A stretch of 64,000 nt of DNA, taken from positions 37,792 through 101,791 of the forward strand of contig CAWFOV010000007.1 in NCBI GenBank assembly GCA_963817605.1, written 5' to 3'. Origin of the DNA: an uncultured Solirubrobacterales bacterium. GTDB taxonomy: Bacteria; Actinomycetota; Thermoleophilia; Solirubrobacterales; Solirubrobacteraceae. Below, in pieces: positions 23,953 through 45,861 of the stretch (the first letter of the stretch is position 1; each line of letters opens with the position of its first letter). A program made the position numbers and the translations under genes. The notes under the pieces are model-generated. The model was not told where the DNA came from. It was given only the letters and a program-made list of their open reading frames with translations, and did no database searches.

Positions 23953-24200
23953 ATGGCCACCAAGGAACACCTCCACAAACTGATAGACGAGCTGCCCGAC
24001 GGCACGCCCGAGACCGAACGCCGGTGGAGGCCGCCGAGCACGACCTCGCGCCGAACGGCACGGCCACTGAGTCGCGCATCGTTGATTCCGAGCGCCATGC
24101 AGCACTGAAGAAGCTGGCCGGATTCTTCGACCATCCGGAGACGGCTCCGTGGGACTGGGATCTGCTGCGCGACGTCAAGCGCCATGCCTGGCGAGCCTGA
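23953..24200 (+). CDS. VapB-type antitoxin (frameshift near 24020)
   Basis: Directly upstream of and overlapping a PIN toxin; TACAAT -10 box just before the ATG suggests a leaderless transcript. Confidence 0.55.
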
Positions 24201-24633
24201 CTCCCCCGGACCGTGGGGAGAAGGGCCGCTCGTTGTAGATAACTCCGCGTGGTCACGCGCTCACCGGCCCGAGGTTCGTGAGGACTGGAAGCAAGCGCTG
24301 CTCGCGGATCGACTCTGCATCTCGCCGATCGCACGCCTGGAGATCCTGTTCAGTGCCCGCGACGGTGAAGGGTTCGACGAGCTCGCCGAACACCTGTTGA
24401 CATTGCGGACGGCGCCGTTGACGAACACCGTAATTCGCGCCGCCGAGCACGCGATGCGCACACTCGCGCACCGCAATCCGGGCGCTCACCGCATCCCGCT
24501 CGTTGACTACCTGCTGGGCGCCGCCGCACAACGCACCGCGTCCGCCGTCCTGCACTACGACCACGACTTCGACACCCTCGCCAAGATCATGAGCTTCGAG
24601 TCCGTCTGGCTCGCACCAGCCTCGATCCCGTAG
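24184..24633 (+). CDS. vapC: PIN-domain VapC toxin
   Basis: LVVDNSAW...LEILFSAR...VDYLLGAAA...VLHYDHDFD. Confidence 0.85.
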   Translation: MPGEPDSPGPWGEGPLVVDNSAWSRAHRPEVREDWKQALLADRLCISPIARLEILFSARDGEGFDELAEHLLTLRTAPLTNTVIRAAEHAMRTLAHRNPGAHRIPLVDYLLGAAAQRTASAVLHYDHDFDTLAKIMSFESVWLAPASIP

Positions 24634-25880: not shown

Positions 25881-26690
25881 TCACATGGGGCTGCGCCGGG
25901 CGCTGGACCCGGAACGCTCGGCATCTTCTTGTGTGTCGCCCGCTTGCGGCTTTTGTCTTGCCCGTCGCTTCTGGATCACAAAGGGGCCGGTGAGCGTGTA
26001 CTGACGTTCTTCGGTGGCTCCGGTGGGGGAGCGTATGGTCGCCTTCCAGTTCACGCGCATCGTGAGCAGTTCGTGTTCGCGCAGCTGATCAACGCCGCGG
26101 CGGATGGTGTCGCGCGAGATTCCGTACGACTCGCCTCCGCGCTCGTGGGGGAGGCTAAACGCCTGTCGAAGCGAGAGCGCGATCAGCAGAACGGACTTGG
26201 CTGGGAGATCGAGACGCTCGTTCCAGCCCTCAAGCCAGAAGGCGTGGGGAAGCTTGAAGTAGTCCAGTCTGGCTCCTGAGTCGCCGCCATGGAGGTAGGG
26301 ATATCCCGAGCCTGTGTCGTCTAGCAGCCATATGCGGCGGAGCCGGCCGTCGCGGGTTGTGCGTACCAGTCGGTGGCGCTCGAGCCAGGACCATGACTCC
26401 GAGATCGACACGCGGGAGCTGGGTGTATCTGGAAGTCCGAGGGCGGCTGCCCAGATCCTGGCCGCCATTGCGACGTCGTAGGGGTGGAGGCTCGCCAACG
26501 CGTGCGCGAGCAGGTAGAGCTCGAGCGTGCGGTGGCGGTGTGATCCCACAAACCAGGAAAGGGGGGCAGGGCCGCCGCCTCGCGTGCGCTTCTGGAGGAA
26601 GCCGCGCGCGAGCGGCATGAACTTGCGGCGGCCACCTCGCTGAGTGAGTAGTGCCGTCGCGACCGGGTTCCCGGTTAGGTCATCGGCCAC
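25881..26690 (-). CDS. Hypothetical DNA-binding protein with two winged-helix-like segments
   Basis: GTG at 26690 overlaps the DUF3800 stop; IWAAALGL...SWSWLERHRLV and YGISRDTIRRGVDQLREHELL. Confidence 0.55.
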   Translation of the reverse strand: MADDLTGNPVATALLTQRGGRRKFMPLARGFLQKRTRGGGPAPLSWFVGSHRHRTLELYLLAHALASLHPYDVAMAARIWAAALGLPDTPSSRVSISESWSWLERHRLVRTTRDGRLRRIWLLDDTGSGYPYLHGGDSGARLDYFKLPHAFWLEGWNERLDLPAKSVLLIALSLRQAFSLPHERGGESYGISRDTIRRGVDQLREHELLTMRVNWKATIRSPTGATEERQYTLTGPFVIQKRRARQKPQAGDTQEDAERSGSSARRSPM

Positions 26691-27505
26691 GTTTCTTGCG
26701 CCTTGTTTTGCGTGACTTGGCCAGGAGCTTGACCTTCCAGCGTCCGTGCGGGTCTTCTCTGCCGGCCGGCTGGAAGCTGGGGCACCCGCAGTGGTCCAGC
26801 AGGTGCTCGAGGAGTAGCTGCTTCTGGCTACCGGACTCGGTGCGGCCCTGACGGAGGTCCAGGGTTGTGGCACCTAGCAGTAGGTTCGACGACCTGGAGA
26901 GCGTCGGTCGAGCGCGAGTCGATCCGGCACACGGTCGCGACAGCGAGACGGTCTCTGAGCTCGTTGATGGTCTTAGCTACGTCCCGCTCAAAGTTGACGT
27001 CCGGCGATGTGCTCCTGCCGTCGGCGAGGATCGCCACGATCTCCTCGTCGTCGATGACCTCTCCTAGGACCGTCGCGGCGAGCTTCTCGTAGGCACGCTC
27101 ACGAGCGTGCGGATGTCCCTTGAACTGGGCGGTGACGTCTCCGTTTTGCCGATCAGCGATGTGGCAGCAGAATCTGGCATCCGGGGCCTCGAAGAATAGG
27201 TCCATCGCTGCCTTCGCGAACTCCAACCGCTTGGTGGATGCGCGTGTCCGCGCCTTGTCGAAGTTCGCCCAGTGGAGCTCCTCTCGGAAGCCGTGCTTGT
27301 CGCGCAGCTGCGCGACGTCTCGTAACAGCGGTGCCGCATCGATCAGCTTGAGGACGCCGATGCCGAAGAACCGATCGCGCGGATGGACGACGCCGGTCTC
27401 ATCGAGAAAGATCGTGGCGGTCGGATGATCCGCGGGAAGGCACATCGGGATCGCTGGGAGGTCGTTTGCAGGCACATGGGAAGAGTAGCGTAGTCTTCCA
27501 GCCAA
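26680..27505 (-). CDS. DUF3800-family RNase H-fold protein (frameshift near 26887)
   Basis: IFLDETG, ELHW, LQVV(D)LLLGA restored by removing one base. Confidence 0.75.
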
Positions 27506-27760
27506 GAATAGTTAGGTTGACAGCTATCTCCATATTAGTCCCTATGTTGTAGATTTAATGTATATATTCCCCTATAAGGAGGGAGCTAATAAGGTGGTTG
27601 CTAGCGCACTAATCGTCTATACTTCTGCTTGCGGTTTAGGACTTCGGCAATGCCCTGTCTTAGCCGTATGACGACCGGCTTGCAGCCCTGGGAAACCAGT
27701 AGAGCGCAGTCGGTCGTTCGCCGTTCTGGGTCCTACGAGCGCGCGGCCAAGCGACCGTCG

Positions 27761-27794
27761 CACCCGCCATCGTTTGAGGCTATCCGCCCGGCAG
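27761..27794 (+). repeat. ~34-bp direct repeat, second copy at 31982..32015
   Basis: cacccgccatcgtttgagg[c/t]tatccgcccggcag, one mismatch. Confidence 0.85.
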
Positions 27795-28165
27795 ATCCTG
27801 AATAGCAGACCGCCGATATCACCCAGCGGGATTGGCCACAGCCCCGGCCGATTTCGCCACAGCCTGTGGCGATACCCCGGGGTTATGCTCAGTCCTCCGC
27901 AGTCCAGCGGATCCTCCGCAGGAGCATCCGCTGGGACGTCAACGATCCCTTCGGACGGAGCACCGCCCACCTGTTCGGCGGCCTCGATCAGCCCGGCAGC
28001 GCGCTCGCTGTTTGCCTGCGCCGCGTCTGCCGCTGGCGCTCCCTCCTCGCCCGCGACGGCATAGGCGGTGCATCAAGCAGCCAGAAACGTCGCTCGTCGC
28101 GTCTGAGTCATTGGGCAATGATCGCTAGACGATGCCCTCCCCTCAACCCGGTGGCTGGGCACAAA

Positions 28166-28500
28166 TCAACAGGCCGGCGGCAAGACCGGTTTGACCATGT
28201 CTGAGAGCTCACGATGCTTACGCTCGTGCTCTGTGATTGTGACTCCCTCGTAGCGTTTGCCCGTGAAGATACAGCTGGTCTTCCAGCCTTTGCCTGCCAC
28301 ATCGTCGTATTCCAGGGTCAACACAAAAGGAATGACCGCGGGAAGCACGTAGGACGAAAAGATCAGCGGCTCAAAGGTGGCCACGCCTAGGCCGGCGATA
28401 TGTGCTCGCGCGTCCATCCTTCCGGAGGCCTTGTTCGCGTCGCCGAGGACATCGATTGAACCTTCAATGTTGAGCGCGGGCCCCGATCCAATATTTCCAC
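28166..28500 (-). pseudogene. Hypothetical protein remnant divergent from the RT
   Basis: NIGSGPALNIEG...LTLEYDDVAGKGW reading frame with no clean 5' end. Confidence 0.35.
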
Positions 28501-28581
28501 CGCGGCACCGGAGCGCCTTACTAGCGAGCGAAGATACGCGTCGTCGGGACGCCGGTCTCCGAGATCCACGCTGATCTCAAG

Positions 28582-30192
28582 TTGACACCGATAGCGAGAG
28601 TCCTGATGCGCTCGGAGGGGCGGTCTCTTTGCCTACGTTACGATCCCGCTCGTGCTCAGATCTCAGCGTTAGTGGCGAAGGGCTACTTGCCGAAGGAGCT
28701 GCCACCCCCGTTCACATCCTCGGACCTGGCACAGTTGCTTCCAGCGCTCACGGCCTCAGGCGCCGTTAAGGGCCGGGTCACAGAATGTGTACACCACAAT
28801 CTTGCACGCGTTGGTGGTACGCGGCGGCCGCTCGGAGTCCCAAACCCGGAAGCGTTCATAGCGCTCACAGCAGAGATCCAAGCACAATGGACGAACATTG
28901 ACGCGCATTTCAAGAGCGCCAAGGTCGCCATTTCGCGCCCCGTTGTAACAAAGACTCGCGAACGAGCCGTCCGGCCGAACCTTCACATCGGAACGCGACC
29001 GAACCACCGCGTTCGATCGTGGACAGGGCAGAAGTACGTCCTACGCGCCGACGTTGGCCATTTCTATGGATCACTTTACACCCACTCCATTCCGTGGGCA
29101 CTGCACACAAAGGCAACTGCGAAGGCGAACAAGGGTAAGACGGACGGCGACCGCATCGATAAGGCGATGCGGAACTGCTTGAGCGGCCAAACGTCGGGGA
29201 TACCAGTCGGTCCCGATACCTCATTCATTGTTGCGGAAATCGTTCTTACTGCCGTCGACAAGGTGCTTGGGGAAACCCTCCCGAACCTTCGGGGGTTTCG
29301 ATACATAGACGACTACGAGCTCGCCTTTGATGGTCGAGCTGAGGCCGAGGGCGCGCTCGCGCGCCTCGAGGTGGCACTAGCGGGCTTTGGGCTGTCGCTC
29401 AATCCCTATAAGACTGAGATTGTTGAGTTGCCGCAGCCTTATAAGGACAACTGGACAACAGAGCTCGGAAAGGTAATTGTCCGCACAGACACCTGGAAAA
29501 AGACTCGGTCCGATCTGATCGCACTCTTCAGTCTGGCGGCAGAGCTTGCGCGGCCCTATCCAGGGGCTCTCAACTACGCATTGAGACGAAGTCGAGATGT
29601 ACCTGTCGAGCAGAAAAACTGGGGAATGTTTCAGTCGCTGCTTTGGTCCACGGTTGCCGCGGAGCCAACGGCGATGGCTGGGGCACTGGACCTCCTGAAC
29701 TTGAAGGCCGAAGAAGCCAATTCGTCGGTGCAGAAGGGCCTGGCTGGTGAGGTCCTCGAGTCGATCATCGCGCGGCATGCACCGGTGCGCAATGCGAGCG
29801 AGGTTGCCTGGGCGATTTGGGCGGCGTTGGCTCTCGACATAAAAATGAGCGCTGACGCGGCCACCCTAGTGGGACGGGTCGAGGACGATTTCGTCGCACT
29901 GCTGGCTCTCGATGCCGTTTCGCGCGGGCAGTTTCCGAGCGGCGCGCTTGATCAATCCTTCTGGGAATCTCTCGTATCGGATCCCGATGCCCTACAGGGC
30001 AACCATTGGCTACTGGCCTACGAAGGCGTGACGAGGACATGGCTGGCGACCGCGGCTGCACAAGTCGCCGCTGATCCGTTCTTCTCAGAACTCAATCAGG
30101 CTCAGGTCCATTTCTATGACCCGAACCCAACACGCGCGCCGTTCTCAGGGCCAGCCGCACCGCTACCCGGGGGCGCAGACACGTATGCGTGA
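28582..30192 (+). CDS. UG/Abi-type (defence-associated) reverse transcriptase with alpha-helical C-terminal domain
   Basis: GYLPKELPPPF, RRPLGVPNP, ADVGHFYGSLYTHSIPWA, GIPVGPDTS, RYIDD, LSLNPYKT; helical C-terminus ending HWLLAYE...FYD. Confidence 0.9.
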   Translation: MTPIARVLMRSEGRSLCLRYDPARAQISALVAKGYLPKELPPPFTSSDLAQLLPALTASGAVKGRVTECVHHNLARVGGTRRPLGVPNPEAFIALTAEIQAQWTNIDAHFKSAKVAISRPVVTKTRERAVRPNLHIGTRPNHRVRSWTGQKYVLRADVGHFYGSLYTHSIPWALHTKATAKANKGKTDGDRIDKAMRNCLSGQTSGIPVGPDTSFIVAEIVLTAVDKVLGETLPNLRGFRYIDDYELAFDGRAEAEGALARLEVALAGFGLSLNPYKTEIVELPQPYKDNWTTELGKVIVRTDTWKKTRSDLIALFSLAAELARPYPGALNYALRRSRDVPVEQKNWGMFQSLLWSTVAAEPTAMAGALDLLNLKAEEANSSVQKGLAGEVLESIIARHAPVRNASEVAWAIWAALALDIKMSADAATLVGRVEDDFVALLALDAVSRGQFPSGALDQSFWESLVSDPDALQGNHWLLAYEGVTRTWLATAAAQVAADPFFSELNQAQVHFYDPNPTRAPFSGPAAPLPGGADTYA

Positions 30193-30274
30193 CCTCGCGG
30201 CATACTAGCCCCAGAACCTCGACGCGATCGAGCGGGCTGGGGCTCCGGTGTTCGCGCGAAAGCGAGAAAGCTCT

Positions 30275-30595
30275 TCACCCAGCAGACAGAGAAGGGATGA
30301 GCATGACACCGGCCAACATCGCCAGGACGACGCTGCACAAGCCCAAGCTCGCCATCCTCGTCCCACTACGCCTCGTAGTCCCGCGCTGTCCCATCTCCAT
30401 ATCCGAGACTACGCCCAAAGCAGCGAGGTCCGTCACACCTCGGCGACTCGACCAATGCCTGGAATCCTGAGCGGGAAAACGCAGACGCCCGCTCCCGGTC
30501 ACTGCGTCGTCGTCGAACTCGACGCGGAAGCGCGCCCCTCGGACCGGATCGGCTGGACATCTGCCCCTCGCCGTCGGTCGGCAGGTCCCGTGCAC
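30275..30595 (-). CDS. Small hypothetical protein with C-terminal TM segment
   Basis: Hydrophobic C-terminus; start uncertain. Confidence 0.25.
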   Translation of the reverse strand: MHGTCRPTARGRCPADPVRGARFRVEFDDDAVTGSGRLRFPAQDSRHWSSRRGVTDLAALGVVSDMEMGQRGTTRRSGTRMASLGLCSVVLAMLAGVMLIPSLSAG

Positions 30596-30674
30596 GCGAC
30601 ACGCCAGGTATATGCGGTGCGCCAGGTATATGGATTCACGGGCGCTGCCTCAGGCGTGCTGATCGATCCAGCGC

Positions 30675-30713
30675 GCAAGATCCGATACCCGCACGGCGGG
30701 TATCGGATCTTGC
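30675..30713. repeat. Perfect 17-bp inverted repeat
   Basis: GCAAGATCCGATACCCG-CACGG-CGGGTATCGGATCTTGC. Confidence 0.85.
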
Positions 30714-31100
30714 TCCATTCGCTGCGGAATATTGGTGTGATCCGGCACCACGATCCACGGCGCGCGTGTAACTAGGGAGCGGCGGGTTGGCGGTGGCGCA
30801 GTGCTGGTCAGGCTGGGCTGCTCGTGAGGATCACGCCCACGGATTGGCGTTCCCTGCCCGGCAATGTCTGGCGTCGAGCCGTAAGAAATAAACCGGGCGA
30901 CTGGACGGGCGCACTGGGCTACACGACAGATACCTCAGACCGATCGGAGCTCGCCGCCTCGTAACCTGCCAACATCGGACACAACAAAGCCCCGGGCGCA
31001 TAACCCCCTTGCGGGAGACAGAGGCGGGTCCGGGGCGTCACCGACCATGATAGTACCCGTCATGGACTCTCAGCAAGCCACCGCCTGGCTGTCCGGACCA

Positions 31101-31165
31101 CGGTTCAGCAGCGCGAAGCGGGAGGCATAGATAGGTTCGCGCGCGCGAGTAACTTAAAGGGGAAA
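31101..31165 (+). repeat. Dispersed non-coding repeat family, copy
   Basis: cggttcagcagcgcg...ggttcgcgcgcgcgagtaacttaaaggggaa. Confidence 0.75.
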
Positions 31166-31407
31166 GTGGGTTGGGAACGGGGAGGTGGTTGGCGGGCTGG
31201 TCCCTTCCGAAGGCGCTAGCCTACTTGGCGTATGCCCCAGGTAAGGCTCTCCCGCTTCGGCGGTGATCCCCCTGGGGCTCCGTTCGTTCTGGCCGCTCGT
31301 GGCAATACGCGTACCTGGCGAAGCGGCGCGCGACCGCTGGTGGGAGCTCACACCACTGCGGCCGGACGCGGCGGGCGTATCCACCTATCGTCGCCGGTCG
31401 CCACCGC

Positions 31408-32025
31408 TCAGCCGCCGAGCAGCGCTCCCTCGATCTCGCGCAGGCGATCGATGTCGCCGCTAATGCCAACCATCGCGTCGGTGTATAGAAACGCCTCGCC
31501 GAGGCGCACGATCGCGTAGGCGAGCACGGCCGGGTCGATCTTCGGCGCATAGCGCCCCGCCTCGACCTCGACCTCGATCACCCGCTGCACCGTTCCCACC
31601 ACACGCGGCTGCACGATCCTGCCGTTGAAGGTGAGGACGCGCACCGCGCGCTCCTGTTCTTGCGCTAGGAACGCGCGCATCCCCTCAAACGCCGCCAGCT
31701 CGCGATTGAACCGGTCGAAGGTCGCGAGCAGCGCGCGTGCCCTGCCGCCAGGCGTCTCGGCGCGAATCTGCAACAGACAGTGTTCGCCCATCTCCGCGAG
31801 CAGCTCTCCGAGCAGCGCCTCGCGCGTCTGAAACCAGCGGTGCATCGTCGCGCGCGCCAGCCCCAGCTCGCGCGCGATCGCCTGCACGTTGACCCGTTCG
31901 CACTTCAGAAAGCGCTTCGTCGCCAGTGCCAGCGCCACCTCCCGCGTCGCCGCCGCCGGCCGTCCAGGCCGCCCGTTGCCACACCCGCCATCGTTTGAGG
32001 TTATCCGCCCGGCAGCGTGAAGCAT
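31408..32025 (-). CDS. TetR-family regulator (QsdR-like)
   Basis: RPAAATRE...VNVQAIARELGLARATMHRWFQTREALL; LAYAIVRLGEAFLY; start uncertain. Confidence 0.8.
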   Translation of the reverse strand: MLHAAGRITSNDGGCGNGRPGRPAAATREVALALATKRFLKCERVNVQAIARELGLARATMHRWFQTREALLGELLAEMGEHCLLQIRAETPGGRARALLATFDRFNRELAAFEGMRAFLAQEQERAVRVLTFNGRIVQPRVVGTVQRVIEVEVEAGRYAPKIDPAVLAYAIVRLGEAFLYTDAMVGISGDIDRLREIEGALLGG

Positions 32026-32097
32026 TCCGATTTGGCGCGAGGGGGCTTCGAGGTATCGGGGAGTACCTGGAGACGAAGTATGTCGCGGCGAGCGCTC

Positions 32098-32337
32098 CTA
32101 CTCCCCCTCTGCCCCGCGAACGGCCGCGAGCATCATCACTTCGGCCATGCGCAGGAGGCCGATTGTGGTGTGTGGGCGCGCTTCGCTCGAGCGGACCGAG
32201 ACGCTGGAGCCGTGGGGCCCAACGACCTCGACGATCGTGCAGACGTCACCGATCTGGCAATCGTCGCCGAAGCGTTCTTCGAGCGCCTCCATCTGCTCGG
32301 CAACGACGCGGCCCATCTTCGACTGATCGAGGGTCAT
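32098..32337 (-). CDS. Small conserved-looking hypothetical protein
   Basis: AAGGGAG RBS, normal codon usage, MTLDQSKMGRVVAEQMEALE... Confidence 0.65.
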   Translation of the reverse strand: MTLDQSKMGRVVAEQMEALEERFGDDCQIGDVCTIVEVVGPHGSSVSVRSSEARPHTTIGLLRMAEVMMLAAVRGAEGE

Positions 32338-32460
32338 CAGGTGCTCCCTTCCGCTGGTTAGTCCGAGCGGCCATGATGTCATTGTCGACCACGGTTCGCC
32401 CAGGAGATCGGGAGGAGCCGGACGAGAGTTTCATCCCAAGCCCGGGGTAGCGTCCTCGGC

Positions 32461-35400
32461 ATGAACCTGTCGGGCCAGGCTTTCAAGCCGTCGCTTCAGG
32501 AGCTGCTCGATAGCGGTGAGCTCGCAATCGCTCGTGGGCCCTTGCGCGCCTGGTTGAAACTCAACGCTCAGGCGCTCGGAGCCAGCTACGTCTATCCGGC
32601 TTGGCTGGAAGCTGGGGGTGGGCTCGATCTGGTGCGTGAGCCTCTGCGCGTTTGGTTGATAACCAATGCCCAAGCGATCCAAGCGAGCCACGTCTATCCG
32701 GCCTGGCTGGACGCCGGCGGGGAGCTCGATCTGGTGCGTGAGCCGATGCGCGCCTGGCTAGGAGAGCACGCTGACACTGAGGCCGCGGAGTTCGTCTACA
32801 AGGCGTGGCTGGGCGGCGGTGGCGAGCTCTCACTTGTGCGCGAGAACATCAAGCGATGGATCGAAGCGCACGGCCAAAGCAAGGATGCACGTTACGTCTA
32901 CAGCGCCTGGCTAGACGCCACGGGCCAACCCGGCTTTGTCCGTGAGGCCGTCAGCCAATGGCTGGCAGAGCATGCCACCCTGAAAGAGGCCCGGTTTCTC
33001 TACCGGTCCTGGCTCGATGCGGGCGGCGAGCGCGAGCTCGTGCGCGGGGAGATTGGGGCCTGGTTAGGCCAGCACGCTGGCGCAGCGAGTGCACACCACG
33101 TGTACTGCGCCTGGCTAGAGGCGAAAGGTGAGCGCAGCTTCGTTCGTGAGGGCATCAGCCAATGGCTGGCAGAGCATGCCACCCTGAAAGAGGCCCGGTT
33201 TCTCTACCGGTCCTGGCTCGATGCGGGCGGCGAGTGTGAGTTCGTGCGCGAGGAGATCAGGGCCTGGCTGGCTCTCCATGGAGAGGACGAGGACGCCAGC
33301 TTCCTTCTCAGGGCATGGCTCGAGTCAGAGGGAGAGCTCGATTTCGTGCGCGAGCCGGTACGTGGATGGCTTGACGTTCATGGCCAGAGCACGATTGCGA
33401 GCATCATGTACTGGAAGTGGCTGCAAGCCAAGGGCGAGCTCGAGCTCGTGCGCCAGCGGATCAGCACATGGCTGGCCAGCTTTTCTCTAACGACGCACGC
33501 AAGGCTCGTCTATTGCGGGTGGCTCGACGCCCGGGGCGAGCCTGAGCTGATTTCGCAAGCACTTGGGCAATGGCTCAAAAAGCACGGAAGCGACAAAGAT
33601 GCGCGATCGGTCTATGACGCATGGTTACAGGCGGGCGGTGGGCTCGAGTTCGTGCGTGAGCCGATCGGGCGGTGGCTTGCCATTCACGGCAGTGACCGGT
33701 GGGGAGGATTTGTTTACCGGGCGTGGCTCGAGGCCGGAGGCGAGCCCGGGTTTATCATGAAGCCACTCACAGGATGGCTGACGCGGCACGCTGAGGCCAG
33801 GGACACGCGATATGTGCTCGAGGCGTGGTTACAGGCATCCCGCGAGCCTGAGATGATCCTAAAGCCGCTGCGTAATTGGCTCGAGGTCAATGGCGATACG
33901 CTGAATGCCAGCTTCCTTTATCCAGCGTGGCTGAAAGCTGGAGGTGACATTGAGATCGTCCGTGAGGCGATCGGGCGGTGGCTTGCCATTCACGGCAGCC
34001 AGGAGATAGCCGCATTTGTCTATGACGCATGGCTGGGCGGCAAGGGTGACCTCGAGCCCGTGCGTGAGGGCATCCGCGAGTGGCTTTCACTTCACGGCGA
34101 AACCGTGACGGCCAAACTCGTCTACCAAGGCTGGCTGGACAGGACCGGTGAGGCCGGGTTTGTGCGCGAGCCGATCCGCGGATGGCTCGAGGTTCACAAG
34201 GACAGTGCAGATACCGGGTCGGTATGCCGCTCATGGCTGGAGGCCTCCGGGGAGCTTGCCATCGTTCGCGATCCGCTTTCCAGGACGATTGCCAGCTATG
34301 GCGACGAGCAGCACACGTGGTATGCCTATGAGGCGTGGCTGCGGGCAGGTGGTGAGCTCCCCCTTGTTCGCGAGCCGGTTAGGGCATGGCTAGGGGCTTG
34401 TGGCAACACTGAAGACGCCAGTTTCGTCTATGCCGCATGGCTGGCAGCTCAGGGCGAGCTTTCCCTGGTGCGTGAGCCGCTGAGACGCTGGCTCGAGATT
34501 CATGGCGAGAGCGACCGCGCGCAATTCGTCTACGAGCGCTGGCTGGAAGCAAACGGCGAGACGGATGTGATTGGCTCACCGCTGCAGGCGTGGCTGGGGC
34601 TCTTCGGCGACACGCAGCCTGCCAACATAATTTGCCGTAAGTGGCTGCAAGCCGGCGGGCAGCCAGCGCTCGTGCGTGAGCCCATCGGCAAATGGCTAGC
34701 CGCCAACCACGACGCAAAGACCGTCCAGTTCGTCTGCCAGGCATGGCTGGAAGCTTCGGGAGAGCTTTCGCTGGTGCGCGAGCCGCTGCGGCGCTGGCTC
34801 GATAAGTATCAAGCTGCTGAGGCCGCCAGATTTATCTATACGTCGTGGCTGGCGGCCGGTGGTGAGCTTTCACTGGTTCGTGAGCCAATGGCGAGCTGGC
34901 TTCACCGGCACGCTCACCTCGAGGACGCCAAGTTCGTTCTCAGAGCCTGGCTGCGAGCAGACGGCGAGCTTTCCGTTGTGCGCACCCCGATTGCGGTCTG
35001 GCTCGATGCTAACGCCCAAACGGACACGAGCTTTGTCTGGGTGCCATGGATTCGTGCCAAAGGCGACATTTCATTCGCTCGCGAGCACGTATGCGAGTGG
35101 CTCAAGCGCTATGGCACGACTGAGAACGCCCGCTATCCCTACGAGGCCTGGCTTGATTGTCAAGATGAGGTGTACCTTCTCCGCGAGCCGGTCACCCGGT
35201 GGCTTTCAGTTCACGCAGAGAACGCAGACGCGAGCTACCTCTACGCCGCATGGCTGAAGGCCGGAGGCGATACGGGCTTCCTCGCCGAGGGGCTAAAGCG
35301 CTGGCTCTCAGTCCATGCCAACACCCCACGCGCACACTTCGTCTATGAGCGCTGGATAGACGCAAAGGGTCCACACGACACTATCCGTGAGCCTTTGCGG

Positions 35401-35724
35401 ACCTGGCTTCGGGATCACAGCCAAACCACCGCGGCCAACATCATCTGCCGCAAGTGGCTGGCGGCCGGCGGCGAGATGGACGTCGTACGCGAGCCAATCG
35501 GAAAATGGCTCACATCTCACAGCGACACGGCAAACGCACGATTCATTTACAGCGAGTGGCTGCAAGCCGGAGGCGAACTCGATCTCGTACGCGAGCCAAT
35601 CCGCAGATGGATCTCAAACCACGCCAACACGATAGACGCCAAGCACCTGCGCCGCAGGTGGATCAAGGCCGGAGGCGAACCCGGAGTAGTGGACGAAAGC
35701 GGCAGGGCACCCGCCTATGCCTGA
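32461..35724 (+). CDS. Tandem 34-aa helical repeat protein (30 full repeats, a degenerate first repeat and a terminal half repeat)
   Basis: Consensus AxFVYxAWLxAGGELxLVREPxxxWLxxHGxxxx; 40 + (30x34 - 1) + 28 = 1087 aa. Confidence 0.92.
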   Translation: MNLSGQAFKPSLQELLDSGELAIARGPLRAWLKLNAQALGASYVYPAWLEAGGGLDLVREPLRVWLITNAQAIQASHVYPAWLDAGGELDLVREPMRAWLGEHADTEAAEFVYKAWLGGGGELSLVRENIKRWIEAHGQSKDARYVYSAWLDATGQPGFVREAVSQWLAEHATLKEARFLYRSWLDAGGERELVRGEIGAWLGQHAGAASAHHVYCAWLEAKGERSFVREGISQWLAEHATLKEARFLYRSWLDAGGECEFVREEIRAWLALHGEDEDASFLLRAWLESEGELDFVREPVRGWLDVHGQSTIASIMYWKWLQAKGELELVRQRISTWLASFSLTTHARLVYCGWLDARGEPELISQALGQWLKKHGSDKDARSVYDAWLQAGGGLEFVREPIGRWLAIHGSDRWGGFVYRAWLEAGGEPGFIMKPLTGWLTRHAEARDTRYVLEAWLQASREPEMILKPLRNWLEVNGDTLNASFLYPAWLKAGGDIEIVREAIGRWLAIHGSQEIAAFVYDAWLGGKGDLEPVREGIREWLSLHGETVTAKLVYQGWLDRTGEAGFVREPIRGWLEVHKDSADTGSVCRSWLEASGELAIVRDPLSRTIASYGDEQHTWYAYEAWLRAGGELPLVREPVRAWLGACGNTEDASFVYAAWLAAQGELSLVREPLRRWLEIHGESDRAQFVYERWLEANGETDVIGSPLQAWLGLFGDTQPANIICRKWLQAGGQPALVREPIGKWLAANHDAKTVQFVCQAWLEASGELSLVREPLRRWLDKYQAAEAARFIYTSWLAAGGELSLVREPMASWLHRHAHLEDAKFVLRAWLRADGELSVVRTPIAVWLDANAQTDTSFVWVPWIRAKGDISFAREHVCEWLKRYGTTENARYPYEAWLDCQDEVYLLREPVTRWLSVHAENADASYLYAAWLKAGGDTGFLAEGLKRWLSVHANTPRAHFVYERWIDAKGPHDTIREPLRTWLRDHSQTTAANIICRKWLAAGGEMDVVREPIGKWLTSHSDTANARFIYSEWLQAGGELDLVREPIRRWISNHANTIDAKHLRRRWIKAGGEPGVVDESGRAPAYA

Positions 35725-35899
35725 GCCGCGGGATCCTCACCGCGTGGAATCCTCGAAGGCTTAAGTCGAGGCGGCTCTCCTCTCAAAGCAACTGCGCGGC
35801 GAGCGCTCTGGGGCCGGGTATAGTCCGGCGGGGAGGAATGAGCATTGCGCGGGCGATGGGGCTGGCGGTATTTTGACGGAGCGGAGGTGAGGGGCCCAG

Positions 35900-36265
35900 A
35901 TGCCTCGTGTACGGATAAATCGCACTGCGGGCGCCCGCCAAGGGATCAGCTACGTCGGTGTTTCGCAAAAGTCAAAAGACGATGGTGTTCGCTCGGCGCG
36001 AGCACGGCGAGCAAAGAAAAAGCTGCTCCGTGAAGCACAGGCGCTGAGCGCTCCCACCGGGCCGGCCGACTGGAAGGCTGCGGGCGAGGGCTTGCACCGC
36101 CTGCAGGAACGCTGGAGGATGGCTGGGTTTGCCGGTGAGGAGCACGACCAGCGGCTCTGGAAGCAGTTCAAGAAGGCAGGCGATCAGTTTTGCCGCCTGC
36201 GCGAGGCGCACTATGCCGAAGTCAAGCGCATCAGCAAGCTCGAGAAGTCTCGCGAGGGGGACTGA
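35900..36265 (+). CDS. DUF349-like protein
   Basis: KKKLLREAQAL...DWKAAGEGLHRLQERWRMAG...DQRLWKQFKKAGDQF. Confidence 0.65.
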   Translation: MPRVRINRTAGARQGISYVGVSQKSKDDGVRSARARRAKKKLLREAQALSAPTGPADWKAAGEGLHRLQERWRMAGFAGEEHDQRLWKQFKKAGDQFCRLREAHYAEVKRISKLEKSREGD

Positions 36266-36288
36266 CTATCTATCCGAAACTCCTCATC

Positions 36289-36398
36289 TTGCAGTTTCCA
36301 GCTAAGCAGCCAAGGGACTCCGGAACGACCGGCCACCGCTTCGTTTTTTGCAGTTCCAGCTAAGCAGGCCGCGGGACTCCGGAACGACCGGTCACCGC
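36289..36398. repeat. Two-copy ~51-bp tandem repeat (period about 59-60 bp) upstream of ssb
   Basis: ttgcagt(t)tccagctaagcag...gggactccggaacgaccgg[c/t]caccgc occurs twice. Confidence 0.8.
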
Positions 36399-36523
36399 GA
36401 AGCGGTCTAGGTCGGAACGGAGTTCCAGGCCGCGTCATCCCGTCCCAAGCGCGGCCTAGTCTGGCTTGAATGAGTCGCAGCCTCAAGAGCACCGGCGAGC
36501 TCCTCGGGCGTTAGGAGCCATCC

Positions 36524-36919
36524 GTGTCACCCCCCAACATCAACCACGTGATGCTCACCGGGCATCTCACAAATGACCCTGAGCTATGCGTCCTGCCCTC
36601 GGGGGGCAAGCTGTGCAAGTTGCGGATCGCGCTCAACGCCCGGCGCAGGCACCCTCTCACCGGAGACATGCAAGAGAAACCCCATTACTTCGACGTGGTG
36701 GTGTTCGGCAGCCAGGGCGAGAACGCCGCTAGATACCTCCATAAAGCGCGGCCGGTAGCTGTCGGCGGATACCTGGACTGGCAATCCTGGAAGACCGAGG
36801 ACGACCTCCAGGCAGAGGCGGTGGTCGTGATCGCGAACACCGTTCAGTTCATCGGCTCCTCGCCGGACCAGATTCCTGGCGGGGCGAGTGAGGGCGGGGC
36901 GAGTGAGGGCGGGGCCTAA
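36524..36919 (+). CDS. ssb: Single-stranded DNA-binding protein
   Basis: INHVMLTGHLTNDPEL...YFDVVVFGSQGENAARYLHK...VIANTVQF. Confidence 0.88.
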   Translation: MSPPNINHVMLTGHLTNDPELCVLPSGGKLCKLRIALNARRRHPLTGDMQEKPHYFDVVVFGSQGENAARYLHKARPVAVGGYLDWQSWKTEDDLQAEAVVVIANTVQFIGSSPDQIPGGASEGGASEGGA

Positions 36920-37883
36920 ACGACAGCCATTCGCTGTCCTTGATCGCCTTCTCACAGGGCGCCACGATCGCTCCGGCCCTGACCAGCGCTCCAATCGCTG
37001 AGCGATACTCGCTCTTGCAGAACCTGCCGAACAATTCAGGCGATACCGACATGGCGTGGATGATCTGCGTCGTTGACGCATGACCGACGCTGGCGCCAAA
37101 CCGCTCGATCGCCTTTCCCAGCTCGCCGGTATCCGCTTCGCCAGCACCGGACTGTTTGCGCTCGCTCCTGCACAACAGCTCGCTCATCAACGTAACACCC
37201 GCGGGAGAGCGGGTGGCAAACAGCCATCTGACGGGCGGTGGTCCTGAGCCCGTCACTCGGACCGGGATCTCATACACATAGGAATAACCACAGCTCCGCA
37301 GGCAGGCGCCGTACAGAACCGCGGCGCGCTGCAGGCCACCCTGCCGGTCCGCCTGATTCCACAGCGTGCTGCCGAGGACCGCGTCAAAACGCTGCTGGCT
37401 CACACTCCCCGCGAGCTCTTCATAGGCGCCGGCATCGAGTTTCAGCAACAACTCGCTCTTGCGGCCCTTGCGGGTGATGAGGCGCTGCAATGTCTCGACA
37501 CTCACACCCTCGCCTGCGAATGGGCTGCAGGCGATAAACGCGGGCTCGACCCCGATCAGGCGAAGGACGTGCTGGATCTGTACCTCGATCGTGCCCGGAA
37601 GGCTGATCGCGACCGGCGGGCCACCCCGCACGAGATCCTTCTCCAGCCCGGCCAGCACGCCGCCGTCCACCGCGAGGTTGATCGTGCGCACCTCCAGAAC
37701 GCCCTCGAGCAAAGACTGTTCGCGCGCCCACCGGGCATATGCCAGCGCCGTGCGCTCGCCGGGCCTCACCGATGCGCTGATCAGCCACAGGCAGCGGCTT
37801 CCGCGGCGCCATTGATCAGAGCGGTCCTCGAGATAGGTTCGCAGCAAGATCCACTCCACCGGGACGCGGGCACCTAGGCCCAT
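36916..37883 (-). CDS. Degenerate TcmP/GMT-like protein with C-terminal wHTH
   Basis: LLRTYL N-terminus, FDAVLGSTLW, EIPV...WLFATRSPAGVTLMSE, SEYRSAIGALVRAG; SAM motif not evident; 3' end uncertain. Confidence 0.4.
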
Positions 37884-44254: not shown

Positions 44255-45861
44255 CTACCGATTCACTCGGAAGATCCGTGCGATACACACGAGGCGTTTG
44301 CCTGTGAGGACGATCACGGCGGCCCAGCCCTGAGGCTGGTTTTTCATGTCGTCGGGGTGGATCGTGTACTCACGTCCTCGTGAGCGCGTGTCCCCGCCGT
44401 CGCTACGCTTGGCCGTACTCCATGCGCCTTGAGTGCCCGCGACGTCGGCAATCATGGTGGCTGAGTCGGGGACCACCTGGCGGTGGGCGATCAGGGTCGT
44501 CAGGTTGCCCATCACCTGCTCGAGCAACAGCTCCCGTCCCGGCACGCGCAGGTCCGAGAGCTCCTGGGTGCCCAGCACCAGGCTCATGCCCGCCCCACGC
44601 GCGCGCCCAAACAAGCGCGCGACCTGCTCAGCGGCCAGCGCCGAGAACTCGTCGATCACCACGAGGGTGGGGATCGGCCGGCCTTGCAGCGCCGCTACGG
44701 TCGCCTGCAAGTCCTGGACGATTGCGGCGCCGAGCATGTGCGCGAGCAGTGGCCGGCGATCAGACTCCAGGCTGAAGAACACCACTGCTCGCTGCTGCAC
44801 CATCTGGAGCAGGTCAAAGGGCTCATCCTCGGGGTTCGTGGATCCAGCCAGACCCAACGTCTGACTCGGCCATGATCGCGAGCCGGTCCCGAACACCCGA
44901 CAGGTCGTCTGCTGACGGGGGGTCAGCGAATCCAGATAGGCGTGTGTCTTCTGCGCCTCAACTCCGGGCAGGCTTCTCGCCAGCGACTCGAGCTCCTGCG
45001 GATCCAGCGGTGCACGAGCTGGCCGAGGCTGATCTCAATGCCTGCCTGGCGCAGAACACGCACAACATGACCCAGGTAACGCTGCGCCTGGCGCAGGTAA
45101 TGCGGCTCGGTGAAGCGCTCGCCGGCCAGCAGCTTGTCAACGATTTCCGTCTCGCTACCACGGCCGAAGGGGTTCCACACGACGGATCCCTCCGGTGTCC
45201 AATGGACAAACGGCCGTCCCACACGTTCGGCGGCACTACGAGCCTCCTTCAACATGCTGGGATCGCCCTTGGGGTCCATCAGGATTGCGCCCATGCCATG
45301 CTCGATGGCATGCACTGCGATCAGGGTCTGGGTGACCGTCTTACCCGAGCCGGCAGCACCGACCACAAGCGTGTGCGTGCCTCCGGTAGGACCGCCGAGC
45401 GGGATCCGGACCAGATGCCCGTCCGGCTCTTCGCCGATCAGCAGCTCGTTTCCCTGAAACCACGATGCTTCACGGCTAGACATACGCCGCAGAGTGATTC
45501 TGGTGGAAAGAGCCCGCACAGCATCCAGCGGCCCTTGGAAACTGCGGGCGATCTGCGCCAGATCACCACCCGCATCGATGTCCTCACGCCGCCAGCGCCG
45601 GCCGCGAAACGCGGCCACCAGAGCAGCGACGCCGATCGTCAGGTCGAGACCGCCAAACAGCGGGCGGGCAAGCAGCACCACGACGAACGCCACGGCCGCC
45701 CAGGTCCAGTTCAGCTGCTGCGAGCGCATCAACCGCGCCACGCCCCAGCCCAAGAGGACACCGAGCGCCACATGCAACGTTGTGCTCATCAGCCACGAGA
45801 CCCCGTGGGCGAAGAGCGTGAATGGATTTTGTTGTTCGGATTCGGGGTAATTCGGGGACAT
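44255..45861 (-). CDS. VirD4/TraD-like type IV coupling protein (frameshifts at about 44880-45010)
   Basis: N-terminal TMs, HTLVVGAAGSGKT, MDPKGD, WNPF, VIDEFS, RARGAGMSLVLGTQELSDL. Confidence 0.85.

What the first reader, a model, noticed from the sequence alone, without database searches (positions are those of the whole stretch)
32461..35724. Stand-alone 34-aa tandem-repeat protein with hypervariable positions: candidate modular (HAT/PPR/TALE-style) nucleic-acid or ligand reader
Seen in sequence: the 1087-aa ORF is a degenerate first repeat, 30 in-register repeats of 34 aa (one is 33 aa) and a terminal half repeat, with no catalytic domain, signal peptide or TM segment. The scaffold is highly conserved (Y5, W8, L9, G13, V18-R19-E20, W25-L26, H29-G30). 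Positions 2-3 (SY, SH, EF, RY, RF, HH, RF, SF, SI, RL, RS, GF, RY, SF, AF, KL, GS, WY, SF, QF, NI, QF, RF, KF, SF, RY, SY, HF, NI, RF) and 6-7 (PA, KA, SA, RS, CA, WK, DA, QG, ER, RK...) vary and would lie on one helix face. Established: TALEs (34 aa, terminal half repeat) and PPRs (35 aa) read one nucleotide per repeat, and HAT repeats (TPR-like) can bind RNA. The register G-xxxx-VRExxxxWL...AxxVYxxW resembles HAT/TPR more than the TALE consensus, with which it shares only the GG and HG turns. Inference: this is an uncharacterised superhelical binder whose specificity may be repeat-encoded (a target of about 30 nt), located between a defence island and an ICE-like module. An alternative is a detached TPR-like sensor domain that binds proteins.
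Basis: partly seen in the sequence, partly recalled or inferred. Interest (0 to 1): 0.85.

Follow-up and report, generated by a model that had tools for sequence, protein, structure and literature searches.

The report
Stand-alone 31-repeat TPR-like solenoid protein
This gene encodes a 123-kDa protein made only of 31 copies of a 34-residue two-helix repeat that elsewhere forms the "sensor arm" of bacterial NLR-like immune ATPases; here it stands alone, is conserved, and looks like a long specific binding platform, most likely for protein, rather than a TALE/PPR-style nucleic-acid code reader.

Summary
Window 32461..35724(+) is an intact 1087-aa ORF with a degenerate N-terminal cap repeat, 30 in-register 34-aa repeats (one of 33 aa) and a partial last repeat. 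It has no Pfam or NCBIfam family, no TM segment, and W-[LI] every 17 residues. AlphaFold2 gives a confident all-alpha solenoid (8-repeat piece: pLDDT 97.6) with a 10-residue helix A and a 15-residue helix B per repeat.

The repeat is not orphan. About 470 database clusters carry it, and nearly all are 1100-1700-aa STAND NTPases (nSTAND5/nSTAND3/NB-ARC, with caspase, trypsin or CHAT heads). In those, 4-25 repeats follow about 700 aa and are usually followed by an unknown 200-aa domain. The window protein lacks the head, the ATPase and the tail.

It is not a remnant:
- A 1087-aa paralogue lies 34 kb upstream.
- Both paralogues have 89%-identical, colinear orthologues in a Solirubrobacterales MAG.
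- dN/dS is 0.20-0.24, like a neighbouring enzyme gene (0.25).

Columns 2 and 6 on helix A differ most between repeats, yet are as conserved between orthologues as the hydrophobic core (Fisher p=1.6e-5). This points to a repeat-specific binding stripe. A nucleotide code is unlikely: 22-24 different residue pairs occur in 30 repeats and the pI is 5.7-6.2. The ligand and the cellular role remain unknown.

The parts
32417..32460 (+). 44-bp upstream block, nearly invariant between both paralogues and both genomes. It is probably the core promoter or operator of a leaderless or short-leader mRNA, with a TANNNT-like TAGCGT 7 nt before the ATG.
   Evidence: 4-way alignment in which similarity starts abruptly at window 32417 and runs to the ATG; the 30-nt core occurs only twice in the genome, once before each paralogue; homology with the orthologous locus begins at 32417; no consistent or significant RNA fold. 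The promoter reading is inference.
32461..35724 (+). Complete CDS, 1087 aa, 123 kDa, pI 5.7: a stand-alone array of 31 TPR-like 34-aa repeats.
   Evidence: dN/dS against the orthologue is 0.20.
32461..32580 (+). N-terminal cap (aa 1-40): about 6 disordered residues plus a degenerate first repeat. Residues 1-108 are 67% identical to the paralogue, against 42% for the interior.
32581..35637 (+). 30 in-register repeats (aa 41-1059). Each has helix A at columns 1-10, a loop at 11-14, helix B at 15-29 and a loop at 30-34. The consensus is A-r-F-V-Y-x-A-W-L-x-A-g-G-E-l-x-l-V-R-E-P-i-r-r-W-L-x-x-H-g-x-t-x-d.
32894..33267 (+). Old internal duplication of a two-repeat (204-bp) unit, 87% identical, also present in the orthologue. 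Column 7 of repeats 5 and 7 is S/S here and A/A in the orthologue, which hints at intragenic gene conversion.
34927..35025 (+). The single 33-aa repeat (aa 823-855), with one residue missing in the inter-repeat loop.
35638..35724 (+). Terminal partial repeat and C-terminal cap (aa 1060-1087) plus the stop codon. The last 96 aa are 60% identical to the paralogue.

Best explanation
The gene encodes a cytoplasmic alpha-solenoid built only from the TPR/HAT-like 34-aa repeat that normally forms the C-terminal sensor arm of nSTAND5/nSTAND3-type STAND (NLR-like) defence ATPases. It has no effector head, no ATPase and lacks the family's usual 200-aa tail, so it cannot signal by oligomerisation-driven effector activation.

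It most likely works stoichiometrically. A rigid superhelix of 31 repeats presents a narrow stripe of helix-A side chains (columns 2 and 6, flanked by 3 and 10) that differs from repeat to repeat but is held constant over time. This stripe binds one long, non-periodic partner, most probably a protein or an extended polypeptide, as shown for sensor repeats of other STAND (Avs) families. The outcome would be sequestration, scaffolding or adaptor function.

Shown: the repeat anatomy, the fold, homology to STAND tails, the absence of other domains, two conserved paralogues, purifying selection, and the special conservation of columns 2 and 6.

Inferred: that helix A lines the concave face, that the ligand is protein, and what binding achieves.
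For: Repeat anatomy.

Fold: AF2 full length gives pLDDT 87.7 and the 8-repeat piece gives pLDDT 97.6 / pTM 0.90, with two helices (10 and 15 residues) per repeat. The nearest shapes are TPR, PPR, HEAT and organellar helical-repeat proteins.

Homology: E values reach 1e-214, 473 representative clusters match, and almost all have the repeats starting at aa 680-720 of a STAND NTPase with caspase, trypsin or CHAT heads.

Not a remnant:
- The paralogue is exactly 1087 aa, with conserved caps.
- Both paralogues have 89%-identical, colinear, intact orthologues in another MAG.
- dN/dS is 0.20 and 0.24, against 0.25 for a neighbouring phosphotriesterase-family gene.

Binding stripe:
- Columns 2 and 6 have 2.8-3.2 bits of entropy between repeats but dN/dS of 0.07 and 0.10 between orthologues, equal to the hydrophobic core. 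Exposed helix-B columns run at 0.43 and 0.46.
- Fisher test against the other high-entropy columns gives p=0.0077 (pair A), 0.0013 (independent pair B) and 1.6e-5 combined.

No conserved neighbour: only the gene plus 44 bp upstream is shared between the two genomes, so it acts without an operon partner.

Published work describes STAND sensor repeats as recognising phage proteins (PMC12803255 abstract; bioRxiv 10.1101/2025.07.08.663546, section 6).
Against: No ligand is known. No STAND protein of this family was found in the same genome with the query used (the genome is only 78% complete), so there is no evident system for it to feed into or interfere with.

I could not inspect model coordinates. 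The assignment of columns 2 and 6 to the concave groove rests on TPR/PPR analogy and on the narrow exposed stripe of helix A.

Two homologue clusters fuse S1 RNA-binding domains behind the repeats, and the best structural neighbours include many RNA-binding solenoids. A nucleic-acid ligand is therefore not excluded.

Confidence: 0.5

Rival explanations
1. Modular nucleic-acid reader. Each repeat would contact one nucleotide of a roughly 30-nt RNA or ssDNA through helix-A residues 2, 3 and 6, in the manner of PPR or PUF proteins.
For: Columns 2 and 6 are repeat-specific and conserved between orthologues, and are net basic (+20/-8 and +19/-5). Column 3 is mostly aromatic (F/Y), as a stacking residue would be.

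The nearest shapes include PPR (TM 0.66-0.69), the Toxoplasma mitoribosomal helical-repeat protein (Z 17.1) and the RESC RNA-editing proteins (Z 16), and PUF.

There is a marginal profile match to the Rrp5 HAT/TPR domain. Two STAND homologue clusters carry C-terminal S1 domains, one of them in a 320-kb genome contig.

Family-wide, columns 2 and 6 co-vary (MI 0.62 against 0.32 when shuffled), though shared ancestry inflates this figure.
Against: There is no small residue alphabet: 22 and 24 distinct (2,6) pairs in 30 repeats, and 107 pairs family-wide.

The whole protein is acidic (pI 5.7 and 6.2, net charge -26 and -13). The adjacent columns 10, 14 and 16 are strongly acidic.

F3 is conserved family-wide like a packing residue. 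There is no Pfam match to PPR, PUF, TALE or HAT. Fold matches to helical repeats at this Z are common (note). The family context is immune sensors known to bind proteins.
Confidence: 0.13
2. Decoy or anti-defence sponge. A free copy of a STAND sensor arm, carried on mobile DNA, would soak up the trigger, or poison oligomerisation, of cognate STAND defence proteins in a recipient cell.
For: The protein is homologous only to STAND sensor arms. In this genome it lies next to an ICE-like stretch with SSB, ParB-HTH and TraG/TraD pieces, and next to a DRT4/6-type reverse transcriptase, DUF3800 and PIN. The gene with its 44-bp leader has moved as a unit between unrelated contexts. It was not found in the 24 same-genus and 16 same-order genomes searched.
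Against: The orthologue and both copies of the paralogue sit among ordinary enzyme genes (GNAT, thioesterase, GST, cupin, phosphotriesterase). There is no homologue in the phage or plasmid collections. No cognate STAND gene was detected in the host genome. The evolutionary rate is ordinary, not arms-race-like.
Confidence: 0.1
3. Structural scaffold or spacer without a single specific ligand, for example a long rigid rod that organises several partners or self-assembles.
For: Both paralogues keep exactly 31 repeats and 1087 aa although their interiors are scrambled (diagonal repeat identity 0.449 against 0.438 off-diagonal). This suggests selection on length or geometry. The caps and the promoter block are conserved.
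Against: Pure length selection would not hold the repeat-specific residues at columns 2 and 6 as tightly as the core.
Confidence: 0.17
4. Decaying fragment of a STAND gene that lost its 5' two-thirds.
For: The head, ATPase and tail domains present in nearly all homologues are missing.
Against: Four intact genes of identical length occur in two genomes. They have dN/dS of 0.20-0.24, their own conserved N- and C-caps and a conserved upstream block. No NTPase remnant lies upstream, where there is a TetR gene and a 94-aa ORF on the other strand.
Confidence: 0.02

Closest known systems
C-terminal repeat (sensor) arms of bacterial STAND/NLR-like defence ATPases of the nSTAND_NTPase5 (PF25199) / nSTAND3 (PF20720, Avs5-type) groups
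   Same: The 34-aa repeat is the same, with E values down to 1e-214. The scaffold residues and the variable columns 2 and 6 are the same family-wide.
   Different: There is no effector head, no NTPase and no 200-aa C-terminal domain. It has 31 repeats against 4-25, its own N- and C-caps, and it occurs as two stand-alone paralogues.
Tetratricopeptide repeats (TPR), including designed consensus CTPR superhelices
   Same: The 34-aa period, the helix-turn-helix unit and the superhelical stacking are shared. CTPR8 matches with TM 0.50-0.52 and an Atlas TPR cluster with TM 0.62. TPR_14 hits 10 of 72 windows from relatives.
   Different: P0001 itself matches no TPR model. Its signature is two W-L anchors 17 residues apart, and helix A is short (10 residues) while helix B is long (15).
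HAT (half-a-TPR) repeats, e.g. the C-terminal domain of Rrp5
   Same: There is a local motif resemblance (A-[RK]-F-x-[YF]-x-x-W-L ... G-[DE]) and a marginal profile match, E 0.008-0.013.
   Different: The match covers one or two repeats only and is not significant. There is no Pfam HAT hit. HAT proteins are eukaryotic RNA-processing scaffolds.
PPR / PUF / TALE one-repeat-one-nucleotide readers
   Same: It is a long array of helical repeats with repeat-specific residues on one helix. The overall arc resembles PPR (TM 0.66-0.69) and PUF (TM 0.45-0.62).
   Different: The period is 34 aa with two helices (PUF has 36 aa with three helices; PPR has 35 aa). There is no small residue alphabet, the protein is acidic, repeats are only about 40% identical (TALE repeats are nearly identical), and there are no family HMM hits.

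Membership tests
Repeat family of nSTAND5/nSTAND3-type STAND NTPases | Significant sequence homology of the repeat array | tested here: met
   The phmmer E value is 1e-214 to 1e-40 against more than 180 clusters. Matches fall in the C-terminal repeat region of the homologues.
STAND NTPase (NLR-like) protein | P-loop STAND NTPase (NOD) module in the same polypeptide | tested here: not met
   There is no NTPase family hit in P0001. Repeats fill aa 7-1079. Homologues carry nSTAND_NTPase5, nSTAND3, AAA_16 or NB-ARC.
STAND NTPase (NLR-like) protein | N-terminal effector or adaptor domain | tested here: not met
   P0001 has none. Homologues have caspase, trypsin-like or CHAT heads.
TPR | 34-residue helix-turn-helix unit stacked into a superhelix | tested here: met
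   AF2 models, with matches to CTPR8 and to an Atlas TPR cluster.
TPR | Match to a curated TPR profile | tested here: inconclusive
   There is no TPR hit for P0001 at E<=1. TPR_14 hits 10 of 72 eight-repeat windows of the family, best E 1.2e-13.
HAT repeat | Match to HAT profile or HAT proteins | tested here: inconclusive
   There is no Pfam HAT hit. The Rrp5 HAT/TPR domain is the best PDB sequence match but only at E 0.008-0.013.
PPR | 35-residue unit matching PPR profiles | tested here: not met
   The period is 34 and there is no PPR hit. Only overall shape similarity is seen.
PPR / TALE / PUF code readers | Small recurrent alphabet of residue combinations at the specificity positions | tested here: not met
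   There are 22 and 24 distinct (2,6) pairs in 30 repeats of the two paralogues, and no pair is seen more than 3-4 times.
TALE | Near-identical repeats differing essentially at a di-residue in the inter-helix loop; TAL_effector profile | tested here: not met
   Repeats are about 40% identical to each other. Variable columns are spread over both helices and loops. There is no TAL_effector hit.
PUF | 36-residue three-helix repeats, typically eight | tested here: not met
   There are two helices per 34-aa unit and 31 units. Foldseek matches to PUF have E>=1.7e-3, TM 0.45-0.55 and rmsd about 8 A.
Nucleic-acid-binding solenoid (functional class) | Sequence-specific binding of RNA or DNA | not testable with these tools
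   This needs Bind-n-Seq, EMSA or CLIP.

The most novel reading that the evidence does not exclude
The two paralogues are programmable readers of a long linear polymer, either RNA/ssDNA or an unfolded polypeptide. One helix-A residue pair (columns 2 and 6) per repeat would set specificity, giving a roughly 30-unit recognition code that bacteria first evolved inside NLR-like sensors and here released as a free binder.
Probability: 0.12. Interest if true: 0.85.

Novelty: new variant of a known kind. Interest (0 to 1): 0.45.

Why it matters
Sensor arms of bacterial NLR-like proteins are usually studied as parts of a three-module machine. Here the arm exists alone, in the longest array seen for its family, in two conserved copies. 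It also carries a clear evolutionary mark of where it binds: one stripe of repeat-specific residues that are conserved over time.

That makes it a clean, effector-free object for asking what this uncurated repeat family recognises and how. Its regular scaffold, with two anchor tryptophans per repeat and very confident models, makes it a possible chassis for designed binders. If the ligand turned out to be a nucleic acid, this would be a new bacterial class of modular readers. If it is a protein, it shows that immune sensor modules can be released for other uses such as sponge, adaptor or scaffold.

Tried and rejected
1. Diversity-generating retroelement. The reverse transcriptase 2.3 kb upstream is a DRT4/Drt6-type defence RT (E 4e-152), not a DGR RT. 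All direct repeats found in 26000-37000 lie inside the gene.

2. Truncated pseudogene. Rejected (see rivals).

3. Partner ATPase. A search of the own genome with the first 700 aa of a STAND homologue found nothing. The genome is 78% complete and only one query was used, so this is 'not found with this query'.

4. Relatives. The gene was not found in the 24 same-genus and 16 same-order genomes searched.

5. There was no match in the plasmid or phage collections.

6. Expression. No RNA holder was listed among public runs.

7. Population variation. Contigs from four soil and mine metagenomes cover the gene at about 97-98% identity but are fragmented at the repeats. No repeat-unit indel was listed, so copy-number polymorphism could not be judged.

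8. The Foldseek search with the full-length model returned only generic giant solenoids with TM 0.1-0.2.

9. The Atlas feature search of the homologues' 200-aa C-terminal domain gave scores <=0.87 with no family. Pfam also gave nothing.

10. The search for related loci with the alignment failed for lack of a conserved word. The single-protein run found the orthologue.

11. RNA structure in the conserved upstream block. The folds are inconsistent, with z-scores of -0.8 to -1.8.

12. PADLOC gave no defence-family hit for the protein itself.

13. Model coordinates are not returned by the tools.
Full report
**1. Observation**

The ORF at 32461..35724(+) is real and intact, at 1087 aa. A W-[LI] dipeptide recurs every 17 residues, 61 times, with one lost anchor and one 16-residue step. 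Each 34-aa unit is therefore two related half-units.

Laid out in register, the protein has:
- a 40-aa N-terminal cap (a degenerate repeat);
- 30 repeats at aa 41-1059, of which the unit at aa 823-855 has 33 aa;
- a partial last unit with an 8-residue tail.

The consensus is A-r-F-V-Y-x-A-W-L-x-A-g-G-E-l-x-l-V-R-E-P-i-r-r-W-L-x-x-H-g-x-t-x-d. No Pfam or NCBIfam family reaches significance. There is no hydrophobic segment, and the pI is 5.7.

The one correction concerns variability. It is spread over many exposed columns (2, 6, 10, 12, 15, 16, 23, 24, 27, 28, 31-34), not only 2-3 and 6-7.

**2. Fold**

AlphaFold2 with an alignment of 30 homologous arrays gives an all-helical solenoid. The mean pLDDT is 87.7. 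The pTM is 0.49, so the global path is uncertain. An 8-repeat piece (aa 75-346) with 72 in-register windows gives pLDDT 97.6 and pTM 0.90. Per repeat, helix A spans columns 1-10, a loop 11-14, helix B 15-29 and a loop 30-34.

Fold searches with the fragment find no specific relative:
- Foldseek on the PDB has a single hit at E<1e-3. It then lists PUF domains (TM about 0.5, rmsd about 8 A), consensus TPR (TM 0.50-0.52) and the Rrp5 TPR domain.
- The exhaustive aligner ranks a Toxoplasma mitoribosomal helical-repeat protein first (Z 17.1, rmsd 3.7 over 268 residues). RESC RNA-editing proteins follow at Z 16 and importin-beta at Z 15. The tool itself warns that such values are common for repeats.
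- The ESM Atlas gives PPR (TM 0.66-0.69), HEAT (0.68), TPR (0.62) and PUF (0.62).

By sequence, the best PDB match of the family profile is the HAT/TPR domain of Rrp5, at a marginal E of 0.008-0.013 over one or two repeats. TPR_14 matches 10 of 72 windows from relatives, but not this protein. The fold is thus a TPR/HAT/PPR-like alpha-alpha solenoid of an uncurated repeat family.

**3. What the repeat belongs to**

Both large protein searches find the repeat in a modest family: 473 representative clusters at E<=1e-3, and 183 at E<=1e-30. A repeat HMM run over all 232 retrieved proteins shows a very uniform architecture:
- about 680-720 aa precede the repeats;
- 4-25 repeats follow;
- in most, a domain of 190-215 aa without a family comes last.

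The N-terminal part carries nSTAND_NTPase5, nSTAND3, AAA_16 or NB-ARC signatures, and caspase, trypsin-like or CHAT heads. This is the tripartite plan of bacterial NLR-like STAND defence proteins. In those, helical repeats are regarded as the sensor (bioRxiv 10.1101/2025.07.08.663546 section 6; PMC12803255 abstract; PMC8195603).

The window protein has neither head, ATPase nor tail, and it has more repeats than any homologue retrieved. A few other stand-alone forms exist. One example is a complete 565-aa gene inside a 2-kb contig.

**4. It is a maintained gene, in two copies**

The same contig carries a paralogue 34 kb upstream, just outside the window (G000:C7:32771-36034). From its ATG it is also exactly 1087 aa, with perfectly regular 17-residue anchors.

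A MAG labelled Solirubrobacterales bacterium (JBIOEX010000004.1) carries colinear orthologues of both copies. Each is intact and 88.6-89.2% identical. Nei-Gojobori dN/dS is 0.20 for one pair and 0.24 for the other. The phosphotriesterase-family gene next to the paralogue gives 0.25 at a similar dS. This is ordinary purifying selection, with no sign of an arms race between these lineages.

The two paralogues share their ends. Residues 1-108 are 67% identical and the last 96 residues 60%, against 42% for the interior. The interior repeats are no more alike in corresponding positions than in any other pairing: 0.449 on the diagonal against 0.438 off it.

**5. Where selection acts**

Columns 2 and 6 lie one helical turn apart on helix A. 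They are among the most different between repeats (2.8 and 3.2 bits). Between orthologues they change as rarely as the hydrophobic core:

| Site class | dN/dS pair A | dN/dS pair B |
|---|---|---|
| Columns 2 and 6 | 0.07 | 0.10 |
| Hydrophobic core | 0.07 | 0.10 |
| Exposed helix-B columns | 0.43 | 0.46 |

Against the other high-entropy columns, the deficit of substitutions is significant in each pair separately (p=0.0077 and 0.0013) and together (6/128 against 133/697, p=1.6e-5).

This is the signature of a specificity surface in which each repeat contributes its own fixed contact. Helix A exposes only a narrow stripe (columns 2, 6, 10; the other seven positions are conserved and mostly hydrophobic), while helix B exposes a wide face. 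In TPR and PPR solenoids helix A lines the concave groove. I therefore infer that the stripe lies in the groove, but I could not check coordinates.

**6. Protein or nucleic acid?**

For a nucleic-acid ligand:
- the stripe is net basic;
- column 3 is mostly aromatic;
- the nearest shapes include many RNA-binding solenoids;
- two homologue clusters have genuine C-terminal S1 domains.

Against it:
- the (2,6) pairs form no small alphabet, with 22 and 24 different pairs in 30 repeats;
- the proteins are acidic overall (pI 5.7 and 6.2), with acidic columns 10, 14 and 16 beside the stripe;
- F3 is conserved family-wide like a packing residue;
- there is no PPR, PUF, TALE or HAT profile match;
- characterised sensors of related STAND families bind proteins.

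I put protein or polypeptide at roughly 55%, nucleic acid at 13%, and no single specific ligand at about 17%.

**7. Context**

In this genome, upstream of the gene lie a PIN toxin, a DUF3800 (PDC-M04A) protein, a DRT4/Drt6-type reverse transcriptase, a TetR regulator and an unassigned 94-aa ORF. Downstream lie a DUF349 protein, an unassigned 344-aa ORF, a ComM/Mg-chelatase-like ATPase, SSB, ParB-HTH proteins and pieces of a TraG/TraD coupling protein.

None of this is conserved. DNA homology with the orthologous locus runs only from 32417 to 35731, and there the neighbours are GNAT, thioesterase, ABM, glyoxalase and GST genes. The gene therefore travels and acts as a single unit.

The 44 bp before the ATG are almost invariant across both paralogues and both genomes, although the coding interiors have diverged to 42%. 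This block occurs nowhere else in the genome. It contains TAGCGT 7 nt before the ATG and shows no consistent RNA fold. I read it as a shared core promoter or operator of a leaderless or near-leaderless mRNA. That reading is inference.

Near-identical sequence is present in soil and mine metagenomes from about a dozen studies. In some contigs, extra sequence is inserted exactly at 32412/32416, the edge of the conserved block.

**8. Verdict**

The code-reader interpretation is not supported, though it is not excluded. The finding is best described as a new, stand-alone, extra-long variant of a known kind: the helical-repeat sensor arm of bacterial NLR-like ATPases. It carries a well-defined candidate binding stripe and has an unknown partner.

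Noticed in passing
outside the window: G000:C7:32771-36034 (= L007:8772-12035, +), 1.76 kb before window position 1: A second stand-alone paralogue, also exactly 1087 aa and 31 repeats. Its ends are 60-67% identical to the window gene, while its interior is 42% identical and not colinear. It is followed by a phosphotriesterase-family gene in both genomes.
   Followed up: yes
window 28582-30192 (+): A solo reverse transcriptase that matches the PADLOC Drt6 and Drt4 models over its full length (E 4e-152 and 4e-140). It is a defence-associated RT, not a DGR, retron or group II intron RT.
   Followed up: partly
window 24184-24633 (+), 26828-27505 (-): A PIN-domain protein and a DUF3800 protein (PADLOC candidate PDC-M04A) lie upstream. 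Together with the RT they support a small defence or toxin-antitoxin cluster.
   Followed up: partly
window 32412-32416: In soil and mine metagenome contigs the sequence diverges exactly here. One contig carries 230 extra bases between 32412 and 32416, and two others run on into unrelated sequence containing a short hairpin. This is the upstream edge of the conserved 44-bp block, so it may be an insertion hot spot or a small mobile element.
   Followed up: no
L016:3001-7686 (P0148, GCA_041690135.1) and P0211: Two STAND homologue clusters carry three S1 RNA-binding domains after the repeats and the 200-aa domain. One is a real 1561-aa gene in a 320-kb contig. This may mean that some family members sense RNA.
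   Followed up: partly
homologues, e.g. P0004:1015-1236, P0033:1040-1259: A conserved C-terminal domain of about 190-215 aa follows the repeats in most STAND homologues. It has no Pfam family and no informative Atlas neighbour. It is absent from the window protein.
   Followed up: partly
window 32993-33094 and 33197-33298 (repeats 5 and 7) vs L008: The two copies of the old 204-bp internal duplication share S at column 7 in the window gene and A at column 7 in the orthologue. The parallel change suggests intragenic gene conversion.
   Followed up: no
window 32098-32382 (-) and 36849-37883 (-): A 94-aa ORF and a 344-aa ORF, both with gene-like GC3, flank the repeat gene. Neither has a Pfam or PADLOC match.
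   Followed up: no
window 44255-44896 (-) and 44923-45861 (-): A TraG/TraD-type coupling protein appears split into two adjacent ORFs, one with the P-loop part and one with the TraG-D_C part. It is either a frameshifted or a naturally split gene in the ICE-like stretch.
   Followed up: no
P0186 (311-aa fragment from a metagenome): A relative whose successive repeats are almost identical to each other and differ at a handful of positions. These are concerted-evolution-type arrays, unlike the roughly 40%-identical repeats of the window protein.
   Followed up: no
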